From IMG/VR virus record IMGVR_UViG_2718217859_000002: DNA of 26,681 bases; one strand, 5' to 3'. Below the pieces are notes generated by a model that saw only the letters and a program-made list of their open reading frames with translations, did not search any database and was not told the origin of the DNA. Below, in pieces: positions 16,383 to 18,435 of the stretch. Both the position numbers and the translations under genes were made by a program. This DNA comes from a virus (taxonomy: Duplodnaviria > Heunggongvirae > Uroviricota > Caudoviricetes). Every line of letters starts with the position of its first letter. The stretch's first letter is position 1.

Positions 16383-17231
16383 ATGAAATTTCCAAAAACG
16401 CCCGTACAGGGGCAGGGCTTCGTTCGGCCTGAAAACCAGAATCTGCAAAATTTCGGCGATATTATCCCGGTTATTTCCGGTGTTATTGGCGGGCGTGAAA
16501 CCAATATTGTTAGCGCCAGAGCGTTGCATAAGGCGCTGGGTGTGAAGCGTGATTTCACAACCTGGATTAAAGGACGCATTGATGAGTACGGATTTAAAAA
16601 TGGCGTGGATTTTGAAGTTGTAGAAAATTTGTACTTTGATTCCCCGAAACGGGGGAACCAAAGTGTAAATATTGAACAGTTTGATTCTGATTGGACAACA
16701 AAGCGCGGCGGTGATCGTCGCAGTGAAGAGTATTTGATCTCCACGAACATGGCGAAAGAACTGGCGATGGTCGAACGCACCGAACAGGGCCGCGCCGTTC
16801 GTCAGTACTTCATCAAATGCGAGGAGGAGCTACACAAGGTAGCGCCAGTGCGTTCCGCAGCGTTACGCAGGGAACTGAAAGCCCGTATCACCGTTGCCAG
16901 CTACTTTAAGCCGATGTGCGCCGCGCTGGAGGCGTACCGGGCTGAACTGGGTAAAAACACACTCCAGCACCACTACACCACGGAAGCCAATATGCTGGCG
17001 CGTATCGTGCTGGGTGGCATGACTGCAAAACAGTGGGCGCAGGCGAACGGCATCACAGGCGAACCACGCGACCACATGAGCACGTTGCAGCTTGAGCACC
17101 TTTCTTACCTTGAGCAGAGCAATATCACGCTGATTGAGTTAGGCCAGGACTACCACCAGCGGAAGGCTGAATTAATTCGTCTTTCGCAGCGTTGGTTAGC
17201 CCGTCGCATGGAGGAAAACAGCCATGTGTAA
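16383..17231 (+). CDS. phage antirepressor-like protein (282 aa)
   Basis: Motif-level resemblance to AntA/KilA-C type antirepressors; AGGAG SD. Confidence 0.5.
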   Translation: MKFPKTPVQGQGFVRPENQNLQNFGDIIPVISGVIGGRETNIVSARALHKALGVKRDFTTWIKGRIDEYGFKNGVDFEVVENLYFDSPKRGNQSVNIEQFDSDWTTKRGGDRRSEEYLISTNMAKELAMVERTEQGRAVRQYFIKCEEELHKVAPVRSAALRRELKARITVASYFKPMCAALEAYRAELGKNTLQHHYTTEANMLARIVLGGMTAKQWAQANGITGEPRDHMSTLQLEHLSYLEQSNITLIELGQDYHQRKAELIRLSQRWLARRMEENSHV

Positions 17232-17618
17232 CGCTCTGACCGTTACAAAAAGAGAAAGCGCCCCGTTGCCGGAGCGCCTTTGTGAACGAATTACCTACAG
17301 CACCGCGATGTTTGCTATGTGGGTGAATTTTAGCGACAAGTTCGTTCAATGTGAAGGCACTGATCACCGTTACTACAGCACGCCAGAAATGCAGAATATT
17401 TTGCTGCAAAATGCCGTTGGCCACGCTGTCCGGAAAGCAAAAAATTTTGCTGGTGGCGCGACTGATGCGATTTTGTCAGGTCGCCAGGTGCTGATCAATC
17501 TGATGTCTGATTTCGTTCTGGATAAAACAAAGGCGACCGCAGAGAGCCGCCAGTGGAAAAGCTACATACTTGAACGCATCACCAACAATGCCACATTTGC
17601 GGCTGGTGGGCAATGTGA

Positions 17619-17795
17619 TCAGTCAGATTTGGTTCGTTCCAAGGTTTGCAACGAGAGCTTTTTCCTGTGCTCTTTAAGGAATTTCTCAAGAGCAAACGAA
17701 CAAGGTGCGAATCTTTCCTGTTCTTGTTCGCTTACCGCATTTTTGCGTTGTTTTTTCCTGGATGAGGATAATTTCTTTAATGATTTGTCAGTCAT
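17619..17795 (-). CDS. possible small basic protein (58 aa)
   Basis: Hand-translated minus ORF MTDKSLKKLSSSRKKQRKNAV...; conflicts with a long plus-strand ORF. Confidence 0.2.
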   Translation of the reverse strand: MTDKSLKKLSSSRKKQRKNAVSEQEQERFAPCSFALEKFLKEHRKKLSLQTLERTKSD

Positions 17796-17852
17796 CGTAT
17801 ATACCTGTAACCCTGTGCGCCACAGTTCATCACTCCACGGCGCTAGTGATGG

Positions 17853-18032
17853 TTACTCCTGCTCTTTGGCCTTGCGACGCTGGCGGCGTTTGATCTCGCC
17901 TTCTAATGCGGCTGTTACAAACTGCCCTGTACTTTCGCCGTCTTCTTTGACCTTATCCATGGCATCAACGATATGGAGTGGGACACGTGCATCTATTCTT
18001 TTCGATTTTGCATTTACTGATTTCGTTGCCAT
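17853..18032 (-). CDS. ribbon-helix-helix-like small regulator (59 aa)
   Basis: MATKSVNAKSKRIDARVPLHIVDAMDKVKEDGESTGQFVTAALEGEI fits the RHH pattern; basic C-tail; GTGTCCGACA-type repeats upstream (18050-18140). Confidence 0.4.
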   Translation of the reverse strand: MATKSVNAKSKRIDARVPLHIVDAMDKVKEDGESTGQFVTAALEGEIKRRQRRKAKEQE

Positions 18033-18231
18033 TTCTGATTTCCGATTGGTTTGGTGTCCGACAATGATAGCGAGAAAAAAGTTTAATGCAATGCTTGACG
18101 TGTCCCACACCGATAAAATAACATGTGTCCGACACTTGATTTTTATCAGTCATAAAATGACGAAACCCCGCACTGTTGGAGCAGTAACGGGGCTTCTAAC
18201 CACCAACGATAGCGAAAGTATCGAGGTAGCT

Positions 18232-18435
18232 ATGTTAAATCATACCACACACCCGCAAGGGCGGGACTCGCACAACCTGAATAAATACATCTGGCGTTTT
18301 ATCGCCCTGAGTACGGCACAACCGCGCGTGATTCACATCGAGGCCACCAGCGAACAGGAAGCGCGCCAGCAATCCCCGGCTGGTTGCGTGATGGTATTCG
18401 CCGCCCGTATTCGCCAGGAGGTGCACCATGCATAA
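18232..18435 (+). CDS. hypothetical small protein (67 aa)
   Basis: GAGG SD 6 nt upstream of ATG; stop overlaps next ATG (ATGCATAA). Confidence 0.45.
   Translation: MLNHTTHPQGRDSHNLNKYIWRFIALSTAQPRVIHIEATSEQEARQQSPAGCVMVFAARIRQEVHHA

What the first reader, a model, noticed from the sequence alone, without database searches (positions are those of the whole stretch)
17224..18435. 403-codon plus-strand ORF with protein-like ends and low-complexity middle, antisense to better-looking small genes
Only the first 135 or so codons (coupled to the antirepressor stop) and the last 67 codons (18232..18435, with its own GAGG SD) look protein-like. The middle is Cys/Ser-rich and antisense to an RHH-like gene (17853..18032) and a 58-aa basic ORF (17619..17795). 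Either a gene lost its stop (pseudogene or fusion) or this is a divergent small-regulator locus with GTGTCCGACA-type operators (18050-18140).
Basis: seen in the sequence. Interest (0 to 1): 0.35.

Follow-up and report, generated by a model that had tools for sequence, protein, structure and literature searches.

The report
Stop-free bridging frame over a repressor switch
The 403-codon frame is no accident: in a phage-satellite island it is kept free of stop codons, with no constraint on its amino acids, while it crosses a small repressor operon on the other strand, most likely so that ribosomes escort read-through transcription as in phage P4's eta/kil genes.

Summary
The ORF 17224..18435(+) exists as described. 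Its last 67 codons are a genuine Icd-like/Kil gene. Its middle is antisense to two genuine minus-strand genes: a YlcI/YnfO-family, probably ribbon-helix-helix regulator (17853..18032) and a 58-aa basic protein (17619..17795). The repeats at 18054-18135 are real operators, because their 5-bp cores co-vary with the ylcI allele in relatives.

The long frame is not a lost stop or a chance shadow ORF. About 92 of 95 related loci keep the Icd frame open for 190-650 codons, despite mosaic contents. Of 60 distinct ylcI-icd spacers, 58 have no stop in that frame, against 348 and 285 in the other two plus frames. All 58 have lengths equal to 1 mod 3, in nine length classes. Substitutions in the spacer show no codon-position bias, and amino-acid conservation sits on the minus-strand genes only.

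Phage P4 Eta ends in the same Icd-like domain (Kil), and its translation is reported to prevent transcription termination. I conclude this is an eta/kil-type nested gene pair in a capsid-forming PICI-like satellite, in a variant where a protein repressor on the opposite strand replaces the CI RNA. The architecture and the selection for openness are shown. The anti-termination role is inferred by analogy.

The parts
17224..18435 (+). Eta-like bridging frame, 403 codons. It starts coupled to the antA/B stop and ends at the Icd/Kil stop.
   Evidence: PGAP calls a 310-aa version (17503..18435) in the identical genome.
17210..17231 (+). Translational-coupling junction: SD GGAGG (17210-17214), ATG 17224-17226, antA/B stop TAA 17229-17231 (ATGTGTAA).
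   Evidence: Sequence. The same or equivalent junctions (ATGA, TAATG, ATGATTAA, stop+SD+ATG) occur in about 30 junction classes.
17255..17280 (-). Strong hairpin followed by CUCUUUUUGU on the minus strand: a terminator-like element that would shield antA/B from minus-strand transcription. Its plus-frame translation gives the recurring 'SAPLPERLCE' peptide.
   Evidence: Minus RNA -19.2 kcal/mol, z -4.6; plus RNA -11.5, z -1.5.
17522..17551 (-). Intrinsic-terminator-like hairpin (17532-17551) plus U-run (17522-17531) downstream of basic58. It is stable only in the minus-strand RNA. Its plus-frame translation gives the recurring 'KTKAT..RQW' peptide.
   Evidence: Minus -12 kcal/mol, z -2.0; plus -7.4, z 0.2.
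17590..17603 (-). Small hairpin immediately after the basic58 stop.
17619..17795 (-). 58-aa basic protein gene, second gene of the minus-strand operon. Function unknown.
   Evidence: phrog_21027, E 2.7e-25. Minus frame: synonymous fraction 0.348, BLOSUM -0.08. Plus frame: 0.244, -1.04.
17853..18032 (-). YlcI/YnfO-family small DNA-binding protein (probably ribbon-helix-helix), the putative immunity repressor.
   Evidence: NF041551, E 4e-16; phrog_949. Protein-level selection on the minus frame only. Weak Arc/CopG resemblance. Operator co-variation.
18054..18064 (.). Operator-like site O3, GTGTCCGACAA (-178 from the Icd ATG).
18095..18124 (+). Predicted internal promoter (PLE analogue): -35 TTGACG 18095-18100, -10 TAACAT 18119-18124.
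   Evidence: The -35 element is conserved in the spacer consensus. Prediction only.
18100..18110 (.). Operator O2, GTGTCCCACAC, abutting the -35 element.
18125..18135 (.). Operator O1, GTGTCCGACAC, immediately after the -10 element.
18136..18231 (+). Leader of the Icd/Kil mRNA with hairpins at about 18162-18196 and 18202-18227; the second touches the SD GAGG (18223-18226). No CI-RNA-type element.
   Evidence: z -2.3. Rfam negative here but positive in P4.
18232..18435 (+). Icd-like/Kil gene (67 aa), nested as the terminal part of the long frame. Its stop overlaps the next gene's ATG (ATGCATAA, 18428-18435).
   Evidence: NF033153, E 6e-20. Codon-position bias 16/14/32. P4 Eta C-terminus hits the same model, E 1.4e-20.
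16383..17231 (+). antA/AntB antirepressor-family (Bro-network) gene that feeds ribosomes into the long frame.
   Evidence: Pfam AntA, E 1.4e-23; PHROG anti-repressor families; annotation.

Best explanation
The locus is the regulatory switch of a capsid-forming PICI-like phage satellite. Gene order is int, alpA-like HTH, antA/B, this locus, DUF4222, primase, ProQ, PerC, capsid genes.

Three small genes here are real. ylcI (a probable RHH repressor) and a 58-aa basic protein form a minus-strand operon, which ends at minus-strand-specific terminator hairpins. Diverging from it is a promoter flanked by three GTG-N5-CAC operators, which drives a 67-aa Icd-like/Kil protein and the replication genes.

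Overlaid on all of this is a 403-codon plus-strand frame. It starts by translational coupling at the antA/B stop and ends at the Kil stop. It is kept stop-free by selection, but its amino-acid sequence is not under selection.

By analogy with the P4 eta/kil nested genes, I infer the following. When the island is induced and transcription enters from the upstream alpA/antA-B operon, ribosomes run the whole frame. That keeps about 1 kb of otherwise untranslated, antisense RNA covered, so that Rho (polarity) cannot stop RNA polymerase before the replication genes. It also drives convergent transcription through the repressor operon. Transcripts from the internal, repressor-controlled promoter translate only the 67-aa Kil part.

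Shown here: the gene identities, the coupling signals, operator/allele co-variation, the stop-free frame, frame-locked indels, and the absence of amino-acid constraint. Inferred: promoter activity, repression by YlcI, and Rho-dependent termination with its suppression by translation.
For: 1. Openness across relatives. The frame is open end to end in L002, L003 and L008 despite indels. It is open through the spacer and antisense ylcI in Superficieibacter, Tenebrionibacter, Serratia and Rouxiella. Among about 95 loci the Icd frame is open for 93-653 codons, and only 4 loci have fewer than 130. The other two plus frames carry 10-40 stops over the same span.

2. Frame locking. 58 distinct ylcI-ATG to icd-ATG spacers fall in nine length classes (145-331 nt), all equal to 1 mod 3. 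They hold 0 stops in the Icd frame against 348 and 285 in the other frames. The only two out-of-phase spacers (195 and 186 nt) are the two loci where the frame is broken.

3. No protein-level constraint on the plus frame.
- Spacer variable sites: 53/53/54 by codon position. Icd control: 16/14/32.
- ylcI region, mean BLOSUM62 of replacements: +0.07 in the minus frame, -1.16 in the plus frame, the same as junk frames.
- basic58 shows the same pattern.
- N-part variable sites: 21/15/20.

4. Ribosome hand-over signals at the 5' end in about 30 junction classes. In some loci a Bro-N/AntA domain is fused in frame.

5. Where the single frame is broken, overlapping or abutting frames still tile the region (L185 type, L066, L004).

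6. P4 link. P4 Eta (214 codons) ends in the same Icd-like domain. It starts on the vis/alpA stop and ends 8 nt into the next gene, as here. 60 of 63 distinct P4-type extensions are open for 135-170 codons. PMC10111431, citing Forti et al. 1999, states that Eta translation prevents termination and that Kil is the truncated form made from the internal promoter.

7. Independent gene calls. Of the 150 best 50%-identity representatives, 122 carry the Icd domain at the C-terminus. 90 of these have an N-terminal extension of at least 100 aa (median length 303 aa). Of ten long forms scanned, seven have no Pfam domain and three have only Phage_ASH.

8. Repressor module. Operator cores co-vary with the ylcI allele at -178/-133/-108. 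The terminator hairpins are stable only in the minus RNA.
Against: - No expression, ribosome-profiling or termination data exist for this element. The Rho step is purely analogical, and Forti et al. 1999 could not be read directly.
- C-over-G enrichment of the plus RNA is only modest, with peaks of 1.56 at 17787 and 1.75 at 18099.
- The loci are related by descent, and the main set was chosen for Icd identity of 92% or more. Several tests are therefore partly circular, for example dicodon avoidance, because they were run on loci already known to be open.
- The constraint is not universal. The frame is broken in two Pectobacterium loci and in L038 (two in-frame stops). In the L009-type Icd set only 6 of 14 distinct loci have a single long frame, and L188, L190 and L191 show real gaps.
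- A fast-evolving disordered protein with a function of its own cannot be excluded by sequence analysis.
- The promoter is a 9/12 consensus match only.
- The RHH assignment of YlcI is statistically weak (E about 1).
Confidence: 0.6

Rival explanations
1. The long ORF encodes a genuine functional Eta-like protein of about 400 aa, for example a disordered or Cys/Ser-rich linker joining an N-terminal module to Kil. In that case the product itself is what selection preserves, not the act of translation.
For: The frame is open and has a good start in most relatives. In some loci a real Bro-N/AntA domain is fused in frame at the N-terminus. Gene callers predict long forms widely. In the N-part the mean BLOSUM62 of replacements is slightly better in this frame (-0.14) than in the other frames.
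Against: - Length ranges from 190 to 650 codons with mosaic, non-homologous contents.
- No codon-position bias in the spacer (53/53/54) or the N-part (21/15/20).
- Replacements opposite ylcI and basic58 are as radical as in junk frames.
- The recurring 'motifs' coincide with terminator hairpins and operators.
- Seven of ten long forms have no Pfam domain; the other three have only Phage_ASH.
- Two-ORF relays replace the single frame in some loci.
Confidence: 0.2
2. The ORF is a chance 'shadow' ORF. It would be an artefact of lying antisense, in the wobble-coincident register, to Lys/Glu/Arg-rich genes that lack Tyr, extended by luck through the flanks. Only the three small genes matter.
For: In this register plus-strand stops can arise only opposite NNY-TAN or NNT-CAN. 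YlcI and basic58 have no Tyr and few His/Gln, so the antisense stretch is cheap to keep open (and reasoning). PGAP annotates only the small genes in most genomes.
Against: The antisense genes cover only about 120 of the 336 upstream codons. The remaining 650 nt comprise the spacer, a 57-nt gap and the 390-nt N-part. They are also stop-free here and in relatives: 0 of 5000 shuffles were open, and 58 of 60 distinct spacers are stop-free and in phase. Openness survives many recombination and indel events.
Confidence: 0.04
3. It is a recent fusion or pseudogene: an upstream small gene lost its stop and ran into icd in this lineage.
For: PGAP's 310-aa 'Icd-like' call in the identical genome looks like a fusion.
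Against: The same continuous frame is found in distant genera and in P4 itself. No relative shows an 'ancestral stop' separating a conserved N-terminal gene from the rest.
Confidence: 0.02
4. The frame is kept translatable for a reason other than Rho evasion. Candidates: ribosomes melting the plus-RNA versions of the hairpins; preventing duplex formation with the ylcI mRNA (RNase III cleavage); stabilising the long mRNA; or displacing the repressor through coupled transcription-translation.
For: The same comparative evidence applies: a stop-free frame without amino-acid constraint. Convergent arrangement with the repressor operon.
Against: The only experimentally studied homologue (P4 eta) is reported to act on transcription termination (PMC10111431). 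Nothing here separates these variants.
Confidence: 0.14

Closest known systems
Phage P4 eta/kil nested genes in the left-operon immunity region (Forti et al. 1999, J Bacteriol 181:5225, as summarised in PMC10111431)
   Same: - The terminal ~65-aa Kil is an Icd-like domain (NF033153) in both.
- A longer in-frame ORF starts upstream of the internal promoter and shares the stop.
- The 5' end overlaps the stop of the preceding gene of the upstream operon.
- The stop overlaps the next gene's ATG by 8 nt.
- The frame contains the element's immunity determinants and is conserved as open in relatives.
   Different: - P4's immunity factor is the CI RNA with seqA, encoded on the same strand inside eta (Rfam C4 and isrK hits). 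Here no such RNA is detected.
- Here the frame runs antisense through a two-gene protein operon (ylcI plus basic58), its terminators and protein operators.
- The frame is twice as long (403 against about 200 codons).
- It is coupled to antA/B rather than directly to the alpA/vis homologue.
'Bro zone' of Gram-negative PICIs and helper-embedded PICIs (PMC10111431)
   Same: The zone order is the same: integration (int, alpA), then Bro-network gene, then replication, then late genes. That paper already likens Bro-zone genes to P4 eta and finds CI/seqA homologues in some PICIs.
   Different: That paper does not mention YlcI or antisense genes: both terms have zero occurrences. Nor does it report a stop-free or frame-locked constraint.
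P1/P7 immI operon (c4 antisense RNA, icd, ant)
   Same: Icd-family small protein placed at the head of an operon and translationally coupled to the next gene. An antirepressor lies in the neighbourhood. This comparison rests on my own knowledge and was not tested here.
   Different: The order and the logic differ: c4 RNA controls icd/ant translation in P1. No long nested frame is known there.
Arc/Mnt-type ribbon-helix-helix immunity repressors (P22 immI) and CopG
   Same: A small (~59 aa) protein with a predicted N-terminal extended segment followed by two helices. Short repeated operators overlap a promoter. The best, though weak, PDB matches are Arc and CopG.
   Different: The matches are not significant (E about 1; TM 0.3-0.4). 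The protein belongs by HMM to the uncharacterised YlcI/YnfO (DUF3950-type) family.
Antisense overlapping gene pairs and 'shadow ORFs' in bacteria
   Same: The plus frame lies in the register where both third codon positions coincide, which is the most permissive antisense phase (reasoning checked).
   Different: Here one partner shows selection only against stop codons, not for a protein sequence. The frame also extends through non-coding regulatory DNA.

Membership tests
P4 eta/kil-type nested genes | The terminal part is a Kil/Icd-like polypeptide of about 65 aa with its own SD and ATG. | tested here: met
   NF033153: E 6e-20 for 18232..18435, E 1.4e-20 for residues 161-208 of P4 Eta. SD GAGG at 18223-18226.
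P4 eta/kil-type nested genes | A longer ORF in the same frame starts upstream of the internal promoter and shares the stop codon. | tested here: met
   17224..18435. Conserved as open in relatives.
P4 eta/kil-type nested genes | The long ORF is translationally coupled to the preceding gene of the upstream (late) operon. | tested here: met
   ATGTGTAA overlap with the antA/B stop plus GGAGG. P4 has GCATGATGATG on the vis stop. Here the partner is antA/B, which itself follows the alpA-like gene.
P4 eta/kil-type nested genes | A promoter internal to the long ORF (PLE) is controlled by the element's immunity. | tested here: inconclusive
   TTGACG-18-TAACAT is a 9/12 match. The -35 element is conserved and flanked by operators that co-vary with the ylcI allele. 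No transcription data.
P4 eta/kil-type nested genes | Immunity is exerted by CI RNA pairing with seqA/seqC inside the ORF. | tested here: not met
   No Rfam C4 or isrK hit in the window, even at E up to 10. Both are found in P4 as a positive control.
P4 eta/kil-type nested genes | Translation of the long ORF prevents Rho-dependent termination of transcripts from the upstream promoter. | not testable with these tools
   Known for P4 only through the literature. The prediction here rests on the stop-free, otherwise unconstrained frame.
Icd-like protein (NCBIfam NF033153) | HMM score above the curated cut-off (25 bits). | tested here: met
   71.1 bits.
YlcI/YnfO family (NCBIfam NF041551) | HMM score above the curated cut-off (30 bits). 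| tested here: met
   58.7 bits for 17853..18032(-).
Ribbon-helix-helix repressors | Beta-strand plus two helices fold with significant similarity to Arc/CopG/MetJ. | tested here: inconclusive
   - Profile against PDB: best hit is Arc, E 0.96.
- AF2 monomer: pLDDT 72, helices 19-31 and 36-58, N-terminus extended.
- Foldseek: the top 8 hits are all RHH proteins, but E is at least 0.68.
Ribbon-helix-helix repressors | Binds repeated short operators at its target promoter. | tested here: inconclusive
   Allele-specific GTG-N5-CAC repeats at fixed positions give strong comparative support. No binding data.
PICI / capsid-forming PICI satellites | Gene order int, alpA, (Bro), primase/replication, then packaging or capsid genes, in a 10-17 kb island at a tRNA or other att site. 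| tested here: met
   Annotation of the identical locus and Pfam hits: int, HTH/alpA-like, antA/B, DUF4222, primase, ProQ, PerC, DUF2213, 345-aa ORF (unannotated, no Pfam hit; capsid role guessed from position), next to tRNA-Gly. The same trio 'AntA/AntB, YlcI/YnfO, Icd' is listed for E. cloacae cf-PICIs (PMC13612085).
PICI / capsid-forming PICI satellites | Induced and mobilised by a helper phage. | not testable with these tools
   -

The most novel reading that the evidence does not exclude
About 1 kb of reading frame is maintained in hundreds of enterobacterial satellites purely as a ribosome track. Selection acts against stop codons and out-of-phase indels but not on the encoded amino acids. 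The track crosses a promoter, protein operators, strand-specific terminators and two genuine antisense genes. Translation itself would then be the regulatory device that lets induced read-through transcription override, and convergently silence, a protein-repressor immunity module. This would generalise the P4 eta mechanism from an RNA-immunity system to protein-immunity systems, and would constrain the codon choice of the repressor genes on the other strand.
Probability: 0.5. Interest if true: 0.7.

Novelty: new variant of a known kind. Interest (0 to 1): 0.55.

Why it matters
- It gives a clean, sequence-level example of selection for 'being translated' rather than for a protein. The signature is zero stops, in-phase indels and no codon-position bias.
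- It extends the 1999 P4 eta/kil mechanism to the much larger PICI/cf-PICI world, where immunity is protein-based and encoded antisense.
- It identifies the uncharacterised YlcI/YnfO family as the likely immunity repressor of these satellites. Allele-specific operators imply immunity types, and this is directly testable.
- It explains inconsistent annotation. PGAP calls either a 310-aa 'Icd-like protein' or three small genes for near-identical DNA. PHROG labels Icd families 'transcriptional repressor', probably a legacy of P4's old 'cI protein' CDS.
- Anyone engineering PICIs, or deleting 'hypothetical' genes here, would unknowingly break a frame that may be needed for induction.

Tried and rejected
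- Rfam at gathering and at E up to 10 found no CI/C4/isrK or other RNA family in 17100-18500. The P4 control was positive, so a P4-type RNA immunity was rejected.
- Pfam, NCBIfam and PHROGs gave nothing for the first 135 codons. Substitution analysis gave no coding signal in any of the six frames. The idea of a separate N-terminal protein gene was therefore dropped.
- tblastn of Icd67 against phage genomes missed P4, and BLASTP against P4 Eta was weak (E 0.07). Homology was established through the shared HMM instead.
- The search for related loci with a diverse Icd alignment failed because no conserved stretch was found. Single-protein scans replaced it.
- Forti et al. 1999 (PMC94026) is not held.
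The single-sequence model was only moderate, and the fold search was not significant.
- The dicodon-avoidance test is partly circular and is used only as illustration.
- An operator copy inside ylcI (17978-17988) occurs in only 2 of about 23 allele groups, so it is not treated as part of the system.
- The C/G 'rut' profile is too weak to count as evidence.
- hyp121 is not related to P4 epsilon.
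Full report
**1. Observation**

The ORF 17224..18435(+) is real: 403 codons with an ATG start. Its ATG overlaps the stop of the upstream antA/AntB antirepressor-family gene (ATGTGTAA, 17224-17231) and is preceded by GGAGG at 17210-17214. Between the antA/B stop and the internal ATG at 18232 there are 0 stops in this frame, against 15 and 24 in the other two plus frames. None of 5000 shuffles of that 1000-nt stretch was open (mean 16.7 stops).

**2. The small genes are genuine**

- The last 67 codons (18232..18435) hit the NCBIfam 'host cell division inhibitor Icd-like' model (71 bits, E 6e-20).
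- The minus ORF 17853..18032 hits YlcI/YnfO (58.7 bits, E 4e-16).
- The 58-aa minus ORF 17619..17795 hits phrog_21027 (E 2.7e-25).

Diverged alleles show where protein-level selection acts:

| Region | Frame | Synonymous fraction | Mean BLOSUM62 of replacements |
|---|---|---|---|
| ylcI (33 alleles) | minus (ylcI) | 0.357 | +0.07 |
| ylcI (33 alleles) | plus (long frame) | 0.327 | -1.16 |
| basic58 | minus | 0.348 | -0.08 |
| basic58 | plus (long frame) | 0.244 | -1.04 |

The plus-frame values are no better than those of junk frames. The plus frame's synonymous fraction opposite ylcI is high only because the third codon positions of the two strands coincide.

YlcI's best PDB matches are Arc and CopG, but they are not significant (profile E 0.96; Foldseek E at least 0.68, with the top 8 hits all ribbon-helix-helix proteins). 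The AF2 monomer shows an extended N-terminus and two helices. Ribbon-helix-helix is therefore likely but not proven.

**3. The operators are real**

GTGTCCGACAA (18054), GTGTCCCACAC (18100) and GTGTCCGACAC (18125) bracket a TTGACG-18-TAACAT promoter-like site at 18095-18124. In relatives the -35 element is conserved.

Each ylcI allele group carries its own GTG-N5-CAC core at the same positions, about -178, -133 and -108 from the Icd ATG. Examples are GTGTTCAACAC, GTGTAAGACAC/GTGTCTTACAC, GTGGCTGACAC, GTGGGCCACAC and GTGCGATTCAC. This repressor/operator co-variation is what one expects of immunity types.

Downstream of basic58 the minus strand carries terminator-type hairpins:

| Hairpin | Tail on minus RNA | Minus RNA | Plus RNA |
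|---|---|---|---|
| 17551-17532 | UUUGUUUUAU | -12.0 kcal/mol, z -2.0 | -7.4 kcal/mol, z 0.2 |
| 17280-17255 | CUCUUUUUGU | -19.2 kcal/mol, z -4.6 | -11.5 kcal/mol, z -1.5 |

Both are much less stable in the plus-strand RNA.

**4. The surprise: the long frame is conserved as open**

PGAP annotates the identical E. coli locus with a 310-aa 'Icd-like' protein. In relatives about 87% identical it calls three small genes instead. Yet in those relatives the frame is open from the antA/B stop to the Icd stop: 405, 445 and 336 codons, despite a 126-nt insertion and an in-frame deletion that removes basic58.

In other genera the Icd frame is open through the spacer and antisense ylcI: Superficieibacter 348 codons, Tenebrionibacter 249, Serratia and Rouxiella 297. 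It is closed only in two Pectobacterium loci.

In 80 IMG/VR loci plus the earlier ones, the open frame containing Icd spans 93-653 codons, and only four loci fall below 130. The other two plus frames carry 10-40 stops over the same span. The contents are mosaic: different upstream genes, ylcI alleles 30-100% identical, basic58 present or absent, other repressor types.

**5. Frame locking**

The 58 distinct ylcI-ATG to icd-ATG spacers fall into nine length classes (145, 178, 187, 190, 193, 196, 199, 205 and 331 nt), all equal to 1 mod 3. Together they contain 0 stops in the Icd frame, against 348 and 285 in the other plus frames. This holds although 160 of 199 sites vary, and the variation is spread 53/53/54 over the codon positions. 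The Icd gene itself gives 16/14/32.

The only out-of-phase spacers (195 and 186 nt, both 0 mod 3) are the two Pectobacterium loci where the frame is broken. If length classes are treated as independent events, 9 of 11 in phase has a binomial P of about 1.4e-3 by my own calculation.

One caveat applies. The 58 spacers come from loci already seen to be open, so the fair summary is '58 of 60 distinct spacers open and in phase'.

**6. The first ~135 codons**

No family matches them, and no frame shows a coding signature (variable sites 21/15/20). The recurring 'peptides' SAPLPER(L/P)CE, KTKAT..RQW and ITNNATFAAGGQCDQS are translations of the minus-strand hairpins and of the basic58 stop region. 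The stretch is best read as regulatory or spacer DNA that is kept stop-free. The roughly 240 nt between the hairpins remain unexplained.

**7. The 5' junctions**

About 30 junction classes show classical coupling: ATGTGTAA, ATGATTAA, ATGA, TAATG, or stop, SD, then ATG. The upstream partner is antA/B, an alpA-like gene, or another gene. In several loci a genuine Bro-N/AntA N-domain is fused in frame to the read-through.

Where the single frame is broken, coverage usually persists:
- In L185-type loci a separate 116-codon ORF starts on the alpA stop, runs antisense to another RHH gene, and ends 11 nt before the Icd ATG.
- L066 has two frames overlapping by 30 nt.
- L004 has a 397-codon frame that passes Icd out of phase.
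- L038 has the long frame with two in-frame stops.

L188, L190 and L191 have real gaps, so the rule is strong but not absolute.

**8. Link to P4**

P4's eta ORF (8168..8812 on the minus strand of X51522, 214 codons from the first ATG) ends in the same Icd-like domain (E 1.4e-20). It starts on the stop of ORF88/vis, the alpA homologue. Its stop overlaps the epsilon ATG by 8 nt, just as the window's Icd stop overlaps the next gene's ATG.

PMC10111431, citing Forti et al. 1999, states the following. A constitutive promoter lies inside eta. Kil is the truncated form of Eta. Full-length Eta is translated only from the upstream late promoter, coupled to the alpA homologue. Eta translation prevents termination, so the late transcript reads through.

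In P4-type loci, 60 of 63 distinct extensions are open for 135-170 codons. P4 holds the CI RNA (Rfam C4) and seqA (isrK) inside eta, whereas the window and its relatives have neither. Here the immunity module is a protein operon on the opposite strand.

**9. Breadth**

HMMER over 1.84 billion 50%-identity representatives found 169 Icd-like proteins. Of the best 150, 122 have the domain at the C-terminus. 90 of these have an N-terminal extension of at least 100 aa (median length 303 aa, range 163-644), and only 13 are short. Gene callers favour long ORFs, but the ORFs must exist to be called. Of ten long forms scanned, seven have no Pfam domain; the other three have only Phage_ASH, which lies where P4 encodes the CI RNA.

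**10. Context**

The island is int, a hypothetical gene, an alpA-like HTH, antA/B, this locus, two phrog_340 genes, DUF4222, primase, ProQ/FinO, PerC, DUF2213 and a 345-aa unannotated ORF (a possible capsid gene, judged only from its position), next to tRNA-Gly in the identical genome. That makes it a capsid-forming PICI-like satellite. The trio AntA/AntB, YlcI/YnfO and Icd is listed, without interpretation, for E. cloacae cf-PICIs (PMC13612085). Searches of the held literature found no paper that describes YlcI as a repressor or mentions the antisense arrangement.

**11. Mechanism**

- Shown: the gene identities, coupling signals, operator co-variation, strand-specific terminators, the stop-free and in-phase frame, and the lack of amino-acid constraint.
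- Inferred: in the quiescent island YlcI, perhaps with the 58-aa protein, represses the internal promoter. On induction, transcription from the alpA/antA-B operon enters the locus, and ribosomes leaving antA/B re-initiate at 17224 and translate all 403 codons. This shields the long antisense RNA from Rho and carries RNA polymerase into the replication genes, independently of the repressed promoter, while convergently interfering with ylcI. The internal promoter alone yields only the 67-aa Kil/Icd.

**12. Verdict**

The feature is an eta/kil-type nested gene pair in a new variant with an antisense protein repressor.

My confidence is about 0.9 for the architecture, about 0.85 for selection on openness, and about 0.5-0.6 for the Rho-evasion mechanism.

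Noticed in passing
window 1..13635: This part is not shared with the otherwise 99.96%-identical E. coli OkiPb01676 locus. It carries a second integrative element with its own integrase (12330..13550, minus strand), a capsid-E-like gene (8992..10020) and a DEAD-like helicase (3901..5385). In the reference genome the breakpoint lies inside a tRNA-Gly; ARAGORN finds no intact tRNA in the window. This looks like two elements in tandem at one att site.
   Followed up: partly
window 18428..18793 and 18786..18986: The 121-aa protein contains two copies of the domain present once in the following 66-aa protein (phrog_340; BLASTP E 6e-9 and 2e-4). They occupy the position of P4 epsilon but show no similarity to it.
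   Followed up: partly
window 18232..18435; L016 (P4) 8168..8584: PHROG families of Icd-like proteins (phrog_6196, phrog_1743) are labelled 'transcriptional repressor'. This is probably inherited from the old P4 'cI gene product' CDS, whereas the real P4 immunity factor is the CI RNA (Rfam C4 hit at 8420..8507 inside eta). It is likely a propagated mis-annotation.
   Followed up: partly
proteins P0049, P0116, P0125: The Pfam 'Phage_ASH' domain sits directly upstream of the Icd domain in long forms of the P4 type. That is where the CI RNA and seqA are encoded, so this Pfam family may largely model the translation of an RNA gene.
   Followed up: no
window 17285..17520: This is the variable ~240-nt core of the 'N-terminal' part, between two minus-strand hairpins. 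It has no coding signature in any frame. It contains a good minus-strand promoter-like site (17355..17327, TTCACA-17-TAAAAT, 10/12). Its function is unknown.
   Followed up: partly
window 17975..17988: GGAGTGGGACACGT inside ylcI is 93% complementary to operator O2 (18098-18111). A similar in-gene copy occurs in only 2 of about 23 ylcI allele groups, so it is probably not a general feature.
   Followed up: yes
L185-L195 (IMG/VR), about 2640..2990: A second immunity type. A different small RHH-like gene ('PPFQFRL...WIKRILRKEL') lies antisense to a 116-codon plus ORF. That ORF starts on the alpA stop and ends 11 nt before the Icd ATG, forming a two-ORF relay instead of a single frame.
   Followed up: partly
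L007 5446..5511 (minus strand): Rfam int-alpA RNA (RF02996, 62.8 bits) is present in the Tenebrionibacter locus. It was not detected in the window at the gathering threshold.
   Followed up: no
window 21692..22554: ProQ/FinO-family (E 1.2e-24) and PerC-family (E 2.2e-32) genes lie back to back in the island's accessory region. A PICI-encoded PerC homologue is reported to repress LEE virulence genes (PMC11773190).
   Followed up: no
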